Of a stretch of 64,000 nt of DNA, positions 4,460-59,352 are shown piece after piece. The notes under the pieces were generated by a model. That model saw nothing but the letters and a program-made list of their open reading frames with translations, was not told the DNA's origin and made no database searches. The position numbers and the translations under genes are program-made. Numbering within the stretch: the first letter of the stretch is position 1; each line of letters starts with the position of its first letter. Source of the stretch: Octopus sinensis (lineage: Eukaryota); the NCBI RefSeq assembly GCF_006345805.1, contig NC_043010.1, positions 37,262,001 through 37,326,000 on the forward strand, read 5' to 3'.

Positions 4460-5334
4460 TAGATAAACAAATAATAAAAAAAATATACATTCTACTCAAA
4501 CTGTGTCCTTTTGGATATTTGCCACTATGAAGGAAGAACAGAAAATATGGCCAGAGAGAAAAATATCAGTGCAAAAATTAGGAAAGAAAAAGTTGAATAT
4601 AACAAACTGCAACCAATTCGAATTTATATAAATCATTTTATTTTGTTTTGTTTTATTTTCATTATTTGTTCCCCTCCCATTCTAAATCCCTTCCAAAATG
4701 TAAATTTGGCAAAAAGAAAAAAACAAAAAAAAGAAAGAAAAATACAAATTTGTCACTTTTTATAATGGAAGTGGCGACTGTGTTTGTATTAGGTTTTTTT
4801 TTCTTTTTTTCTGCAATAGTAGTTAGTGTGGGGTAGATTTCTTTGGGTTTGGGGTTTAAAATATTTTGCTGTCTGGCCCCTGAACATAATGTTTTGTTCA
4901 GGGAAGGGTTATTCCTTGAAGATGGCCCGCTGGCAGCAGAGTCCCTGCTTCTGCTATTATTAATTTTAGTGGATTTTTTTTTTTTTGTTTGTTTTGTTAT
5001 ATTTTTTTTTGTTTTGCCAGTACTCTATAATGATGATGCTGATGTTGATGACAATGGTGGTTTACTTCACTCTGCACAACCCCTTGCCGACCACTAAAAT
5101 TAATTTGTCATTCCAATCTAGAAGAGGGAAGACAGAACAAGGTATGAGGTGTGGTGGGTGGGGTGGGGGGCATACTCCCTGCTAGAACATTAGATATTTA
5201 CCTATTCCCTTTTTTTTTTATCTCTTCCTTTCCCCCCTTTTATTTACATTTTCAACTTTGATTTCAATGTCATTTTCATATACACACACACATATTTGTA
5301 AATGCTTCCCTATTTCTCTTTCGCCTTATTTATA

Positions 5335-5445
<111 letters not shown>

Positions 5446-7129
5446 ATTTATTCACACACACACACATAAATGCACATATATCCCTTTTGTTCTCATTTGC
5501 TTTTTATTTTGTTTTTTTAGCCATTAAGAGATTTTTAGGCTCTCCATTCTGTTCTGCTCTCCTTCCCCTCCCCCTTGCTCTCTCTTTTTTTCTTTTATTT
5601 TATTATTTTATTACCTGTCTGCCAACCCCCCTCTCTCTCTCTCTCTCTCTCACACACCAACTTAGTTCCCTCCCTTCCGCCCATATCTCAGTTGTCTCCC
5701 TATCTTCATGTCCCCAAATTAAAACAAATCTAAACTGGGAAGAAGAAAAATAAAAATAAAAAAAGGGTAAACAACAAAAATTGACAAAACAAGAAATACT
5801 TTTAAAATATATTTATTTAAAAAAAAAAACGTAAAAAGTATTTAAAATGAAAAGAGTCCCACACACACACATACATATACACACTCTCACACATGCATGC
5901 ATGCACACTTTCTCATAGTCACTCACCCATATGCGCTCCTACCTAAACACAAGCATAACAGATCTCTTGAGAAATAGAGGACATTGCCAATAGTGAAGTC
6001 TGAGAAGAAGCCTAGTAATGGGGTTTGAGCTGGGTGGAATTGGAAGTAGTGGTAGCGGAGAGGGGGCAGGCGTCGGCTTGGTGATGGCGGTGGTGGTGGT
6101 GTCGATGATGTGGTGTCTGTAGTGTTAGAGAAAAGGAAAGGGTGTTTGTGATTGTGATGGTGCGAGGTTGGTACTTTTTGTGGAGCCCAAGCCCAGGGCC
6201 AGCTCTGATTGAGCAAACCTCCGATGAAGAGTATTCTAACCATGACCATCCATCTGGACTTTTATTCAAAGGCTCGGGTAGGGCTGTATAGTAAGATGTT
6301 TGCTTCCCAACCACATGGCTCCAGGTTCAGTCCTGCTGCATGGCATCTTGGCCAAATGTTGGGGCCGACCGAAGCCTTGTGAGTTGATTCGGTATATGGA
6401 AACTGAAAGAAGCCCGTCATATATTTGTGTATATATGGGTGTGTGTGTCTTTGTGTCTATGTTTGTCTCCTACTATCGCTTGACAACCAGTAATAGAATA
6501 GACCAATAGAATAAGTACCTGTGTGGATTCAGGCCTTAACACTCCACAATTAAGTTTGTTTCCCAACCACATTGTTCAGGGTTCTGCCCCACTACATGGC
6601 AGCTTGGGCAAGTGTTCTCTATTATAGCCACAGGCTGACCAAAACCTTGTGGGTGGATTTGGTAGACAGAAACTGAAAGATGCTCATATATGTATATCTT
6701 TATGTGTATTTATGTGTCTGTGTTGTCTCCCACCACCACTTAACAACCAGTGTTGGTGTGTTTATGTCCCTGTAACTTAGTGGTTTGGCAAAAGAGACTG
6801 ATTAGAATAAGTACCAGGCTTTAAGAAAACAAAGTACTTAGGTCAATCCGTTTGATTAAAAAGATTCTTCAAGGCAGTGCCTCAGCATGGCCACAGTCTA
6901 ATGATTAAAACAAGCAAAAGACGAAAGATGAATGTATGATTTGATTCCATAGCAGCAAACTTCCCTCAAATCAGATCTACTTCTTGAGAAAAAATTTGAA
7001 AGAATGAAAGAAAGACTTGGAAGTCACCATATGAAAGATTTTGATTGTACTTCTGAGAGTATCACAGCATCCATGTATCACTGTATGTGGCACACCCCAT
7101 CAATTCAGCTCCATGATATATCAAATTGT

Positions 7130-51334: not shown

Positions 51335-52320
51335 GAGTCATCCTTAAAGACAAGTAGGTGTTCCTCGTTGCTCTGGTGCATGAACATATATCAAGGGGCA
51401 TAGCAAGATTGGCAGAACAAGAGGTAAACTAGTGGTGTTACATCAAAGAGCTGTTCTTGCTTATAGACTCAGTTATTGACTGAGTCCATTCTGAGTATTT
51501 GCCATGCAAACTCACTATGGATTGGAGAGAGCAAGAGCTTTTCTTCTCTTTTGTGTGGTGAGCAAGACTGAAAGTTCTGAAAAGAAACATTTCCTTCTTC
51601 AAGCAAACCCTCATCAACTTCTTCGTGTTCCACTTGGAGAAGGAGTTGAGGGTAGAGATTTTGTTGAGAGTGGTTGGATAAGAGTAGCAAAATTGGCCAG
51701 TATGGATAGACTTACTTTCAGCATACATCTTTTAGCAAAAGAGTAGAGCTGGGACAGGTTATACATACCTTTGGCATTCAGAGTAATACTGGATCTGTGG
51801 GGCTCCATTTATATATTTTTGTTTACTCTTTACTCTTTTACTCTTTTACTTGTTTCAGTCATTTGACTGTGGCCATGCTGGAGCACCACCCTTAGTACTT
51901 ATTCTATCGGTCTCTTTTTGCCGAACTGCTAAGTTACGGGGACGTAAACACACCAGCATCGGTTGTCAAGCAATGCTAGGGGGACAAACACAGACACAAA
52001 CACACACACATATACATATATATACATATATACGACAGGCTTCTTTCAGTTTCCGTCTACCAATCCACTCACAAGGCATTGGTCGCCCGGGGCTATAGCA
52101 GAAGACCACTTGCCCAAGATGCCACGCAGTGGACTGAACCCGCAACCGTGTGTTGGTTAGCAAGCTACTACCACACAGCCACTCCTGCGCCTTACTTTTT
52201 TACTTCTTTTTTTTTTGTTTCCTTTTCATTATCAATTCTGTGTAAATTCCCATCATTTTTGTAATTTATCTTTTGTAATATGCTCTTCGTCCATCACCCG
52301 TTGGGCAAATAAAAGAAATA
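51335..52320 (+). mobile_element. decayed L1/Tx1-like LINE 3' end split by a family A SINE (51824-52190, -)
   Basis: Frameshifted peptide LINFFVFHLEKELRVE...W.RVAKLASMD resembles a Tx1-type C-terminus; a T-rich 3' UTR with aataaa follows the SINE. Clade assignment is tentative. Confidence 0.45.
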
Positions 52321-52825: not shown

Positions 52826-52886
52826 TTAAAACTAAAACAAATAATAGAGTATGTATGTGTACCTCTCTCTCTCTGTCCTCTCTCTC

Positions 52887-52927
<41 letters not shown>

Positions 52928-53046
52928 ACAATTTAGGAATGGCCTAAACAGGCCATTCGTCCACCAGAAGAGCAGCCAGAACTCCAACCGCCAAGTAGTG
53001 TAATTCGGAAATAAGGTGAAAATTTAAAAACATTTACCCTAATTCA

Positions 53047-53146
53047 TCTTTTATACGATGCATCGTTTCAGTGTCTTTAATGATAGACCAGCTTAATTAA
53101 ATAAATTAAGCTAGTCTACCATAGGTCACACTTCATCAGTAAAAGA
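53047..53146 (-). ncRNA. type I hammerhead ribozyme motif (mirror copy)
   Basis: Reverse complement of 53624-53720 apart from small indels; core tcatcag at 53133-53139 and tacgatgcatcgtttc upstream of it. Confidence 0.85.
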
Positions 53147-53623
53147 AACCTGGGAGAGACGGATATACACGAGGCGACTGTATCAATGCCCCGGGAATAT
53201 CTGTCTAAAATTTTCAAGACCAACGCATTCGCGCCAAACTTATCGGCAGCAAATATAAACTGCCGATTCAATCTCAGAATAGTCAGAAAATTATCAATTA
53301 ATCAATTTAGGGTAGCAAAAAATTCAGTAAAAATTATCGCTACCAGCGGCCTAGTGGAAAAGAGAAAAAGTCAAAGACTAAATATTTAGTCTTTGACTAT
53401 TTTCTCTTTTCACTAGCCGTGCTGGTAGCGATAAATTTTTACTGAATTTTTTGCTACCCTAAATTGATTAATTGATAATTTTCTGACTAATTCTGAGATT
53501 GAATCGGCAGTTTATATTTGCTGCGATAAGTTTGGCGCGAATGTGTTGGTCTTGAAAATTTTAAGACAGATATTCCCGAGGCATTGATACAGTCGCCTCG
53601 TGTATATCCGTCTCTCCCAGGTT

Positions 53624-53720
53624 TCTTTTACTGATGAAGTGTGACTATGGTAGACTAGCTTAATTTATTTAATTAGCTGGTCTATCATTAAGACACTGAA
53701 ACGATGCATCGTATAAAAGA
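53624..53720 (+). ncRNA. type I hammerhead ribozyme motif, intact core
   Basis: TCTTTTA-CTGATGA-AGTGT[long hairpin]ACACT-GAAAC-GATGCATC-GTA^TAAAAGA. Stem I is 7 bp, stem II is extended with G-U pairs, stem III is the palindrome ACGATGCATCGT; predicted cleavage after 53713. Confidence 0.9.
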
Positions 53721-54065
53721 TGAATTAGGGTAAATGTTTTTAAATTTTCACCTTATTTCCGAATACACTACTTGGCGGTTGGAGTTCTGGCTGCTCTTTC
53801 TGGTGACGAATGGCCTGTTTAGGCCATTCCTAAATTGTTATATTTATACATATTTAGTCTTTGACTATTTTCTCTTTTCCACTAGGCCGCTGGTAGCGAT
53901 AAATTTTTACTGAATTTTTTGCTACCCTAAATTGATTAATATATATATATATATATATTTATGTGTGTGTACCTCTCTCTTTCTCATATATTTATGTATT
54001 TATTTATGTGTGTGTATATATTCATGTATATATATTTATAAAATTTTTTTCTTGTTCCCTTTCAG

Positions 54066-54269
54066 GCTGATGAAAGTATAAACGACGAACTGGAAGCTGC
54101 TCAGATGACCAAACGCCGAGTGGACCACTTGAAAGAATATGATAGCAACCAATCCAGTGCTGTGTCATTGTGGAAGAAAACGCGCCTCGACCGAATGTTA
54201 GTAGAGTATTTTCTCAGAGCCGGCTATTATAACGCAGCACTCCGGTTGGCAAAACACTCTCATATTGAG
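54066..54269 (+). CDS. MAEA: MAEA / E3 ubiquitin-protein transferase (GID9/Fyv10 ortholog), internal exon, LisH region
   Basis: Acceptor ttttcttgttccctttcag and donor GAG|gtatgt; 204 nt, phase 0. ADESINDELEAAQMTKRRVDHLKEYDSNQSSAVSLWKKTRLDRMLVEYFLRAGYYNAALRLAKHSHIE matches recalled human MAEA KRRIEHLKEH...[33 protein letters not shown]. Confidence 0.95.
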
Positions 54270-54324: not shown

Positions 54325-54544
54325 CTCTTTACTCTTTTACTCTTTTACTTGTTTCAGTCATTTGACTGCGGCCATGCTGGGGCACCGCCTTTAATCAAGC
54401 AACTCGACCCCGGGTCTTATTCTTTTTTTGTAAGCCCAGTACTTATTCTATCGGTCTCTTTTGCTGAACTGCTAAGTAACGGGGACATAAACGCACCAGC
54501 ATCGGTTGTCAAGCAATGCTAGGGGGACAAATACAGACACACAA

Positions 54545-54575
<31 letters not shown>

Positions 54576-54747
54576 CATATATACGATGGGCTTCTTTTCA
54601 GTTTCTGTCTACCAAATCCACTCACAAGGCTTTGGTTGGCCCGAGGCTATAGTAGAAGACACTTGCCCAAGGTGCCATGCAGTGGGACTGAACCCAGAAC
54701 CATGTGGCTGGTAAACAAGCTACTTACCACACAGTCACTCCTGCGCC
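54325..54747 (-). mobile_element. family A SINE, full length, in MAEA intron
   Basis: Full match to family A, starting 55 bp after the exon donor. Confidence 0.9.
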
Positions 54748-54894
54748 TCTTTGTTTACAAAGTTCCAGTTGATAGCAATATGATGTCTATGGGGGACTGT
54801 TCAGATGTCACATTTTGTCTGAGGAAAAGAGACAGTTCTACTTTTTCTTGCTGATTTGCTTAGAAAGACAGGGTATCTCAGCTTCTATCTAGAC

Positions 54895-58480: not shown

Positions 58481-58779
58481 GAAATGTTTCTGGAAAATTA
58501 CTTTTCAATGGTTAAACTCAAAGTAGGGAAATATGTAAATAATGGTTTCAAATGCCAGCAATTTTGAGAGAGGGTGTAAATAGTTAACATCAAACCCCAA
58601 TGAAGGCCACAAACCAATGTATAACAGATGAAGTTAAGACTTTAATCAAAGAGTGCAATCAGTTGAAACATATGCATCTTAAATTCTTCAGAAATTAGAA
58701 GAATAAATAATAGAAGTAGTTCAGCTGATGGCTATAACATATCTGGTCTTTCAGTTTTTGTGCAGAAACAAAGGAACTG

Positions 58780-59352
58780 TGGAAAATGGCGAAAGCATTG
58801 AACAACCAAAGCAAGCAGTCTCCAAATATTTATTGCCATCATTCAACAAGTCCACTTCCAATCCAAAGAGTCAGTAAAGACATTTAATAAACCATTCAGT
58901 AATATTAGCAGACATACCAGACTGTAAACTTCATGCAACCACCAGAAAGATAAAGAGAAATGACAAAATTGACAGCATTAAATTCAAGAAAGATAAAGTA
59001 GAATTGATAATGATTTAAAAAAAAATTTTTTTTTTTAAATTTAAATAACTCAGTAGTAGAGGATTCAGACAGTGTGGCTATATTTCTTCGGAAAAATCTT
59101 GGCAAATTTGGTATCATGTGCTCGGTAAGTGTTTTCAATGTCACATGGGAACTGTCAAATCTTGGCAAGCTAGAAAACCTCCTCGGCAAAAGTCTCTTTT
59201 ATGAATCTTTGCAATGATGGAACTGATGCAACATCATACAAACCAGTGTCCTTTTTGAATCTAATTGCAAAAGTCTTTCAAAAATTTCTCCTACTCCCAA
59301 TCTTGCATCCTGCCAAGAATACCTGTGTGGATTCAAGACTCAACACTCCACA
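58780..59352 (+). mobile_element. decayed LINE reverse transcriptase N-terminal fragment (Jockey/I-like)
   Basis: ATSYKPVSFLNLIAKVFQKFL resembles the SYRPISLL...K..EK motif; tggattcaagactcaacactccaca resembles GFR..HST. Confidence 0.6.

What the first reader, a model, noticed from the sequence alone, without database searches (positions are those of the whole stretch)
53624..53720. Sense-strand ribozyme ~350 nt upstream of a MAEA splice acceptor
Seen: an intact hammerhead on the MAEA sense strand. Its stem II extension (atggtagactagct/agctggtctatcat) contains G-U pairs that work only in this orientation, supporting an RNA-level structure. Stem III can close as a monomer (ACGA-UGCA-UCGU). Inference: if it folds before pairing with the upstream arm, it would cut MAEA pre-mRNA co-transcriptionally and could affect splicing or expression.
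Basis: partly seen in the sequence, partly recalled or inferred. Interest (0 to 1): 0.7.

Follow-up and report, generated by a model that had tools for sequence, protein, structure and literature searches.

The report
Retrozyme hammerhead caged by its mirror
This self-cutting RNA motif in an intron of the octopus MAEA gene belongs to a young, protein-free jumping repeat with thousands of relatives in the genome, and the mirror-image copy transcribed just before it is predicted to pair with it and keep it from cutting, so it is most likely a passenger rather than a regulator of MAEA.

Summary
In detail: a type I hammerhead lies at 53624-53720, predicted cut 53713/53714, 352 nt before a MAEA exon. 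It is not a MAEA feature. It is the cargo of a ~474-bp non-coding repeat: 281 exact copies of its 3' half and 3,393 hammerheads of the wider family occur genome-wide, and stems I and II covary between subfamilies. The insertion is head-to-head in (TA)n, with a second hammerhead on the minus strand and a ~95-nt tail on one arm, the Penelope-like signature. In 27 of 27 and 7 of 7 two-armed insertions of two families, one arm ends at each of two fixed sites. The mirror arm adjoins with no spacer and is transcribed first; it is predicted to pair all 97 ribozyme nucleotides at a 118-125 kcal/mol penalty. Cleavage of MAEA pre-mRNA is therefore unlikely. Verdict: new member of a known kind (non-LTR retrozyme, likely a non-autonomous Penelope-like element). 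The helper element was not found; expression and cleavage are untested. This scan noted the same class and two-site rule before on other DNA of this genome.

The parts
52887..52926 (.). (TA)n microsatellite, left flank and likely target of insertion
   Evidence: both flanks TA-rich in 35 of 38 family-A clusters
52927..53383 (-). Left arm: inverted near-full copy of the ~474-bp unit, 3' end pointing outward and stopping at the first fixed end site
   Evidence: 3 substitutions and 15 gap columns against the right arm over 477 columns
53047..53146 (-). Second type I hammerhead on the minus strand (core C3 at 53139, predicted cut 53054/53053)
53378..53389 (.). Spacer-less palindromic junction of the two arms (centre 53383/53384)
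53384..53840 (+). Right arm: sense copy of the ~474-bp non-coding unit (family A)
   Evidence: longest ATG frame in a real trimer 33 codons
53624..53720 (+). Type I hammerhead with long stem II extension and palindromic stem III; predicted cut 53713/53714
53647..53688 (+). Stem II extension hairpin, 14 bp plus AU-rich top, with two G-U pairs
53808..53840 (+). GC-rich hairpin (53808-53829) followed by the first fixed end site, a candidate reverse-transcription start signal
   Evidence: hairpin pattern has 6,543 hits genome-wide, control 0
53841..53939 (+). Tail of about 95 nt (start of the next unit), with a hairpin at 53892-53926 before the second fixed end site
   Evidence: (D4, D6)
53940..53959 (.). 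(TA)n microsatellite, right flank
54066..54269 (+). MAEA coding exon (about residues 75-143 of a 390-aa octopod homologue), acceptor AG at 54064-54065

Best explanation
The hammerhead is part of a young, non-coding ~474-bp repeat that sits head-to-head in a (TA)n tract of a 108-kb MAEA intron; it was likely pasted there by the enzyme of a Penelope-like retrotransposon, and in MAEA pre-mRNA it is predicted to be held inactive by its mirror arm. Steps: (1) Shown: the unit is dispersed, mostly in tandem, non-coding, and keeps the hammerhead fold across subfamilies. (2) Inferred from known retrozymes: tandem copies elsewhere are transcribed, cut into unit-length RNAs and probably circularised; the palindromic stem III would also allow a dimeric ribozyme. 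(3) Inferred: a Penelope-type RT/GIY-YIG protein cuts (TA)n and primes both DNA ends on the multimeric or circular RNA, one end at each of two start sites about 95 nt apart, each just after a hairpin. This gives two outward-pointing arms of which only one has the tail. (4) Predicted: RNA polymerase II reading MAEA makes the antisense arm first, and the sense arm zips onto it from the spacer-less centre into a ~455-bp duplex before the ribozyme is complete. The intron is then not cut; the likely effect on MAEA is a long intronic double-stranded RNA, not cleavage.
For: Copy number: 213 matches from the 40 scored of 1,634 candidates, listed full-length copies 91-98% identical, tandem spacing about 474 bp; 281 exact copies of a 29-nt ribozyme half; 3,393 family-wide hammerheads; controls 0. 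Structure: 95.5% of 379 cells paired, 9 of 35 pairs with changes on both sides (4 in stem I, 4 in stem II, 1 in the extension), slid controls 29-44%. Real monomers between two cut sites fold as circles with z = -6.2 and -9.4 in family A, -4.7 and -3.2 in family B (40 shuffles each). Architecture: 27 of 27 family-A and 7 of 7 family-B two-armed clusters are minus-then-plus with one plain end and one tail end; both flanks TA-rich in 35 of 38 and 13 of 13. This matches the Penelope-like signature in PMC8557442 and PMC3846280 and the two RT start sites of PMC11167929. The genome holds Penelope-like ORFs of 775-781 aa with RT, a CX4CxxC linker and C-terminal GIY-YIG, whose 3' ends abut (TA)n. Caging: 97 of 97 ribozyme nucleotides pair with the upstream arm; the active fold costs 117.6-125.3 kcal/mol at 20 C with the arm and 1.7-6.9 without; the minus-strand copy is caged alike, 118.5 against 3.7.
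Against: No helper element was found. Units A and B show no convincing nucleotide similarity to 30 GIY-YIG loci, 8 longer Penelope-like loci (only 13-36-nt hits) or 30 loci of another family, and no Penelope ORF is joined to 20 solo or odd copies. Cleavage, expression and circles are untested. Pair 10.1-11.1 is A-U where G-C is the highly conserved pair (PMC4209133), and 8 of 9 Xenopus retrozyme dimers did not cleave in vitro, so an intact fold does not guarantee activity. Even without the arm the active fold is not the minimum-energy fold (5-12 of 16 pairs). The caging result ignores kinetics and nascent-RNA-binding proteins. The 11 sequences are related and represent few independent events. 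Long perfect inverted repeats can be long-read artefacts.
Confidence: 0.82

Rival explanations
1. The ribozyme cuts some fraction of MAEA pre-mRNA as an unselected side effect, because protein coating, kinetic trapping or A-to-I editing keeps the duplex from closing. This would lower MAEA mRNA from that allele.
For: The core and all three stems are intact. Without the arm the penalty is only 1.7-6.9 kcal/mol. Fast intronic ribozymes reduce splicing, as reported second-hand for Fong et al. 2009 in PMC10274809.
Against: The duplex nucleates at a spacer-less palindrome 240 nt before the ribozyme. A crude model that turns 25-50% of upstream-arm A into G still leaves a 111-121 kcal/mol penalty (I-U is weaker than G-U, so this overstates stability). 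Only 352 nt separate the cut from the exon, seconds of transcription (rate), against about 0.1 per minute for the mussel retrozyme.
Confidence: 0.08
2. The inverted arm is an assembly artefact (a long-read fold-back) and the true locus has a single uncaged copy.
For: The junction is a perfect palindrome and the arms differ mostly by single-base gaps typical of read errors (15 gap columns, 3 substitutions).
Against: A fold-back would mirror the flanks and the tail. Here the flanks differ, and only the right arm has the tail, the same asymmetry as in 34 of 34 two-armed clusters, this one included. Palindromic junctions are described for Penelope elements (PMC3846280).
Confidence: 0.04
3. A domesticated intronic ribozyme that regulates MAEA, like the CPEB3 ribozyme or the conserved amniote intronic hammerheads.
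For: Sense orientation, near a splice acceptor, intact core.
Against: It is about 97% identical to hundreds of dispersed copies, so the insertion is young. A mirror copy sits on the other strand. About 42-44% of Xenopus retrozyme copies are intronic, so an intronic place is ordinary. No paper linking MAEA and a ribozyme showed up.
Confidence: 0.02
4. The unit is a satellite or foldback DNA element spread by DNA-level processes, with the hammerhead a leftover.
For: Tandem arrays and long inverted arms.
Against: Arrays are short and dispersed, with fixed 3' ends and variable 5' ends, (TA)n targeting and strand-specific RNA covariation; these point to an RNA intermediate.
Confidence: 0.04

Closest known systems
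Metazoan non-LTR retrozymes (Cervera and de la Pena 2020, PMC7229834; Li, Clavereau and Pollet 2026, bioRxiv 10.64898/2026.07.22.740005)
   Same: Non-coding, low-GC (36-37%) tandem unit with one type I hammerhead per unit; hundreds to thousands of copies; well-folded predicted monomer circle; co-occurs with Penelope-like elements; often intronic.
   Different: Unit of 474-497 bp is longer than the 170-400 nt circles of the 2020 paper, though inside the 51-972 bp range of the 2026 preprint. Stem II carries a ~19-bp extension and stem III has 4 bp. Pair 10.1-11.1 is A-U. Most sampled insertions are head-to-head. At this locus there is one ribozyme per strand, so it could not release a monomer itself. 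Circles are not shown here.
EN+ Penelope-like elements, Neptune/Nematis type (Craig et al. 2021, PMC8557442; Arkhipova et al. 2013, PMC3846280; Frangieh et al. 2024, PMC11167929)
   Same: Partial tandems, inverted 5'-truncated copy, palindromic junction, tail at one end only, (TA)n preference, hammerhead near the 3' end.
   Different: No ORF. The tail is about 95 nt (family A) or 107 nt (family B) instead of 30-40 bp. No shared sequence with any autonomous element examined.
Intronic host ribozymes (CPEB3 HDV-like ribozyme, PMC10274809; conserved amniote intronic hammerheads, title seen in that paper's reference list)
   Same: Sense-strand self-cleaving motif inside an intron of a conserved gene.
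   Different: Those are single-copy and conserved between species (recalled for the amniote hammerheads). This one is a young multi-copy insertion with an adjacent antisense arm.

Membership tests
Type I hammerhead ribozyme | Core CUGANGA, GAAA and UH around three helices, helix I open | tested here: met
   core intact in 61 of 64 and GAAA-stem III-GUA in 62 of 64 distinct family-A copies
Type I hammerhead ribozyme | Helices kept by compensatory change | tested here: met
   9 of 35 pairs change on both sides, slid controls at most 2; few independent lineages
Type I hammerhead ribozyme | G10.1-C11.1 pair (highly conserved, not strictly required) | tested here: not met
   A-U in 9 of 11 aligned sequences, unpaired in 2; conservation stated in PMC4209133
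Type I hammerhead ribozyme | Match to an Rfam hammerhead model | tested here: not met
   0 hits at gathering score; no hammerhead family among 32 hits at E up to 10. The long stem II insertion likely defeats the models (inference).
Type I hammerhead ribozyme | Self-cleavage leaving 2',3'-cyclic phosphate and 5'-OH | not testable with these tools
   needs a bench assay
Non-LTR retrozyme | Short non-coding tandem unit with one type I hammerhead per unit | tested here: met
   family level; this locus holds one unit per strand plus a tail
Non-LTR retrozyme | Dispersed multi-copy family with GC under 50% and a well-paired monomer | tested here: met
Non-LTR retrozyme | Expressed as linear and circular unit-length RNA | not tested
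   no read data were laid on the element
Non-autonomous Penelope-like element | Partial tandem plus inverted 5'-truncated copy, tail at one end | tested here: met
   27 of 27 and 7 of 7 two-armed clusters
Non-autonomous Penelope-like element | Insertion into (TA)n | tested here: met
   35 of 38 and 13 of 13 clusters; a target-site duplication cannot be read inside (TA)n
Non-autonomous Penelope-like element | 3' end or pLTR shared with an autonomous family in the same genome | tested here: inconclusive
   no similarity in 68 Penelope-like loci, a small part of the 5,029 and 8,019 candidates
Autonomous Penelope-like element | ORF with RT and GIY-YIG | tested here: not met
   longest ATG frame 33 codons; no tblastn hit of three Penelope-like proteins in the window
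Domesticated intronic ribozyme | Single-copy and conserved at the orthologous site | tested here: not met
   multi-copy and young; the orthologous site in other species was not available

The most novel reading that the evidence does not exclude
Self-caging retrozymes: head-to-head Penelope-type integration puts an antisense arm in front of the ribozyme whichever way a host gene is read, so insertions with equal ribozyme numbers on both arms are silent and survive in introns, while uncaged sense copies are purged. The cage is itself a long double-stranded RNA, so A-to-I editing of it could gate cleavage of host pre-mRNAs such as MAEA in an animal with thousands of these ribozymes. This locus is one of only 5 of 38 sampled clusters that are fully caged.
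Probability: 0.2. Interest if true: 0.6.

Novelty: new member of a known kind. Interest (0 to 1): 0.22.

Why it matters
For MAEA it probably matters little: a young passenger insertion whose ribozyme is predicted to be masked. The family is of modest use to retrotransposon specialists. The strict one-plain-end, one-tail rule (34 of 34 two-armed clusters) and the hairpin before each end give a defined short template for testing how Penelope-type enzymes prime both DNA ends, an open question named in PMC8557442 and PMC11167929. The caging idea gives a simple genome-wide test of how animals tolerate thousands of self-cleaving RNAs in introns. I found no paper describing octopus retrozymes, and an Octopus vulgaris repeat annotation has no 'ribozyme' in its main text; supplements were not seen and subscription journals are not covered.

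Tried and rejected
Rfam: no hit at gathering score, only chance hits at E up to 10. Pfam on the 67-aa exon: 0 families. Helper element: GIY-YIG loci, 8 long loci, a further family taken up after an earlier scan note suggested a Hydra-type partner (that family was not shown to be Hydra), 20 solo or odd copies with about 5 kb of 5' flank and 60 pattern loci gave no shared sequence and no attached ORF; the GIY-YIG fragments near L006, L023 and L140/L170/L171 are separate neighbours. Sequencing runs: no RNA holder listed (20 rows, none on record as RNA, none with half the words); no reads were laid, so expression and presence/absence of the insertion stay open. A short-motif search for the upstream MAEA exon in the window found nothing; one search placed it outside the window. 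One row of alignment A1 had wrong coordinates and was replaced by alignment A2. Rejected readings: G-U polarity as evidence of a MAEA role; fold-back artefact; satellite DNA; target-site duplication (the 25-nt repeat at 52850-52874 and 53960-53984 is 92% identical and lies outside the TA tracts, more likely older microsatellite structure). The A-to-G editing model is crude and used only as a bound.

Full report
Observation. The region folds better than 200 of 200 shuffles, z = -3.33. Rfam does not find it, likely because of the long stem II. The downstream exon is MAEA, its acceptor is 352 nt past the cut, and the previous matched exon is about 108 kb upstream. The exon is identical to an Octopus vulgaris protein, so the genome is an octopus or close kin.

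Surroundings. The ribozyme sits in a long inverted repeat. The locus reads (TA)n, an inverted unit (52927-53383), a spacer-less palindromic junction, a direct unit (53384-53840), a ~95-nt start of a further unit, and (TA)n. The left arm carries the same hammerhead on the minus strand, so the sense orientation singles out nothing about MAEA. The arms differ by 3 substitutions and 15 gap columns in 477; the sense ribozyme lacks four homopolymer bases against the commonest variant, which suggests assembly error.

Family. The unit has 213 matches among the 40 scored of 1,634 candidates, many in tandem at about 474 bp. A 29-nt half of the ribozyme occurs 281 times exactly, control 0. A sister family of about 495 bp and 73% identity exists, and a relaxed pattern counts 3,393 hammerheads of the group, control 0. 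On 11 sequences chosen to span subfamilies, 95.5% of 379 cells pair and 9 of 35 pairs change on both sides, against 29-44% and at most 2 in slid controls. Real monomers fold as circles with z from -3.2 to -9.4. The unit has no ORF over 33 codons.

Insertion signature. I classified 38 family-A clusters in 37 loci: 17 of the 30 loci (repeat views of one insertion and arrays cut by the locus edge dropped) and 20 stretches picked as solo or odd hits. All 27 two-armed clusters are minus-then-plus, with one arm ending at the first site and the other carrying the tail; none has two plain ends or two tails. Two of the 27 look like one duplicated insertion. In family B, 13 of 20 loci were used and 7 of 7 two-armed clusters obey the rule. 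Both flanks are TA-rich in 35 of 38 and 13 of 13. Each end site follows a hairpin by about 11-13 nt (read). Partial tandems, an inverted 5'-truncated copy, a tail at one end and (TA)n bias are described for Penelope-like elements (PMC8557442, passages; PMC3846280, passages). The tail equals the stretch between two RT start sites in a purified system (PMC11167929, passages and half of the main section). I infer priming of the two DNA ends at the two sites. The genome has Penelope-like ORFs of 775-781 aa with a CX4CxxC linker and C-terminal GIY-YIG, Neptune/Nematis type by that motif and not placed on a tree. None of 68 such loci shares sequence with the unit, so the helper is unidentified.

Does it cut MAEA? 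Transcription meets the antisense arm first. At ten prefix lengths the minimum-energy fold pairs nearly all of the growing sense arm with it (204 of 211 by 53600, 317 of 324 by 53713). All 97 ribozyme nucleotides are taken up, and forcing the active fold costs 117.6-125.3 kcal/mol at 20 C, against 1.7-6.9 without the arm. The minus-strand copy is caged alike (118.5 against 3.7), and a crude editing model leaves more than 110. These are equilibrium estimates; kinetics and proteins are not modelled. The time window is also short: 352 nt at a few kb per minute (PMC10274809, passages, which also relays that fast but not slow intronic ribozymes impair splicing) against about 0.1 per minute for the mussel retrozyme (PMC7229834, passages and section 14). 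Equal ribozyme numbers on both arms occur in 5 of 38 clusters, this one included; 30 are unequal and 3 have none. The solo picks bias that count, and no gene annotation was available, so a filter for caged copies in introns is a hypothesis.

Comparison. It works like, and at family level fits, the metazoan non-LTR retrozymes (PMC7229834), which a 2026 preprint argues are non-autonomous Penelope derivatives; there 42-44% of Xenopus copies are intronic and 1 of 9 dimers cleaved in vitro (10.64898/2026.07.22.740005, parts 1-3 of 5 read). Palindromic stem III and dimer action are known, and G10.1-C11.1 is the usual pair, which this family lacks (PMC4209133, parts 1-2 of 4). Circular RNA and cleavage are untested here. 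It does not fit domesticated intronic ribozymes, being young and multi-copy. Searches for octopus retrozymes and for MAEA with ribozyme (listings and abstract starts only) showed no direct report; PMC13282606 has no 'ribozyme' in its main text. Supplements of these papers were not seen and may list cephalopod elements.

Earlier scan notes. After forming this reading I looked up the scan's notes: several describe the same class and the two-site rule on other DNA of this genome; none lies near this place or matches this unit by sequence. They are unchecked notes and are not counted as support. One gave a Hydra-partner lead, which I tried on one family without success.

Verdict. A real hammerhead motif and an ordinary kind of element: new member of a known kind, interest 0.22. 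Cutting of MAEA pre-mRNA in any form gets about 0.10, a selected regulatory role about 0.02.

Noticed in passing
family A and B loci, e.g. L005, L014, L063, L066: All 34 two-armed clusters have one arm ending at each of two fixed sites, each 11-13 nt after a hairpin and sharing a short AU-rich motif; tails are about 95 and 107 nt, longer than the 30-40 bp described for Penelope-like elements.
   Followed up: yes
L015:861-1341 and L139-L168: A larger sister family (about 495 bp, several subfamilies) with the same long-stem-II hammerhead; it makes up most of the listed hits among 3,393. At L015 a family-A insertion directly abuts a family-B insertion in the same TA tract.
   Followed up: partly
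L084, about 5000-6230: Two further non-coding elements with hammerhead-like folds upstream of a Penelope-like ORF: an inverted pair with another extended stem II, and a short canonical one.
   Followed up: no
L081-L086: A young Penelope-like family with 780-781-aa RT/GIY-YIG frames, 92-99% identical between copies; L082 has a second upstream frame of 479 aa overlapping the RT frame.
   Followed up: partly
L087, 3' of the ORF end at 4634: A hammerhead-like motif with a minimal palindromic stem III about 170 nt before the (TA)n junction, read by eye.
   Followed up: no
L185:1485-2442: A family-B tandem whose units have lost most of the hammerhead by an internal deletion yet were still amplified and inserted, hinting that cleavage is not needed for copying.
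   Followed up: no
window 51826-52190 and 54325-54750: Two copies of a common SINE-like repeat flank the insertion and the exon in the same orientation (direct-repeat families D3, D5, D10-D12).
   Followed up: no
window 58749-58874: A stretch matching the last 42 residues of a 224-aa MAEA-like record (P0002) but not the 390-aa homologue: possibly an alternative or mis-annotated last exon.
   Followed up: no
L102:4207-5635: Two adjacent insertions with identical breakpoints, likely a local duplication or an assembly repeat.
   Followed up: no
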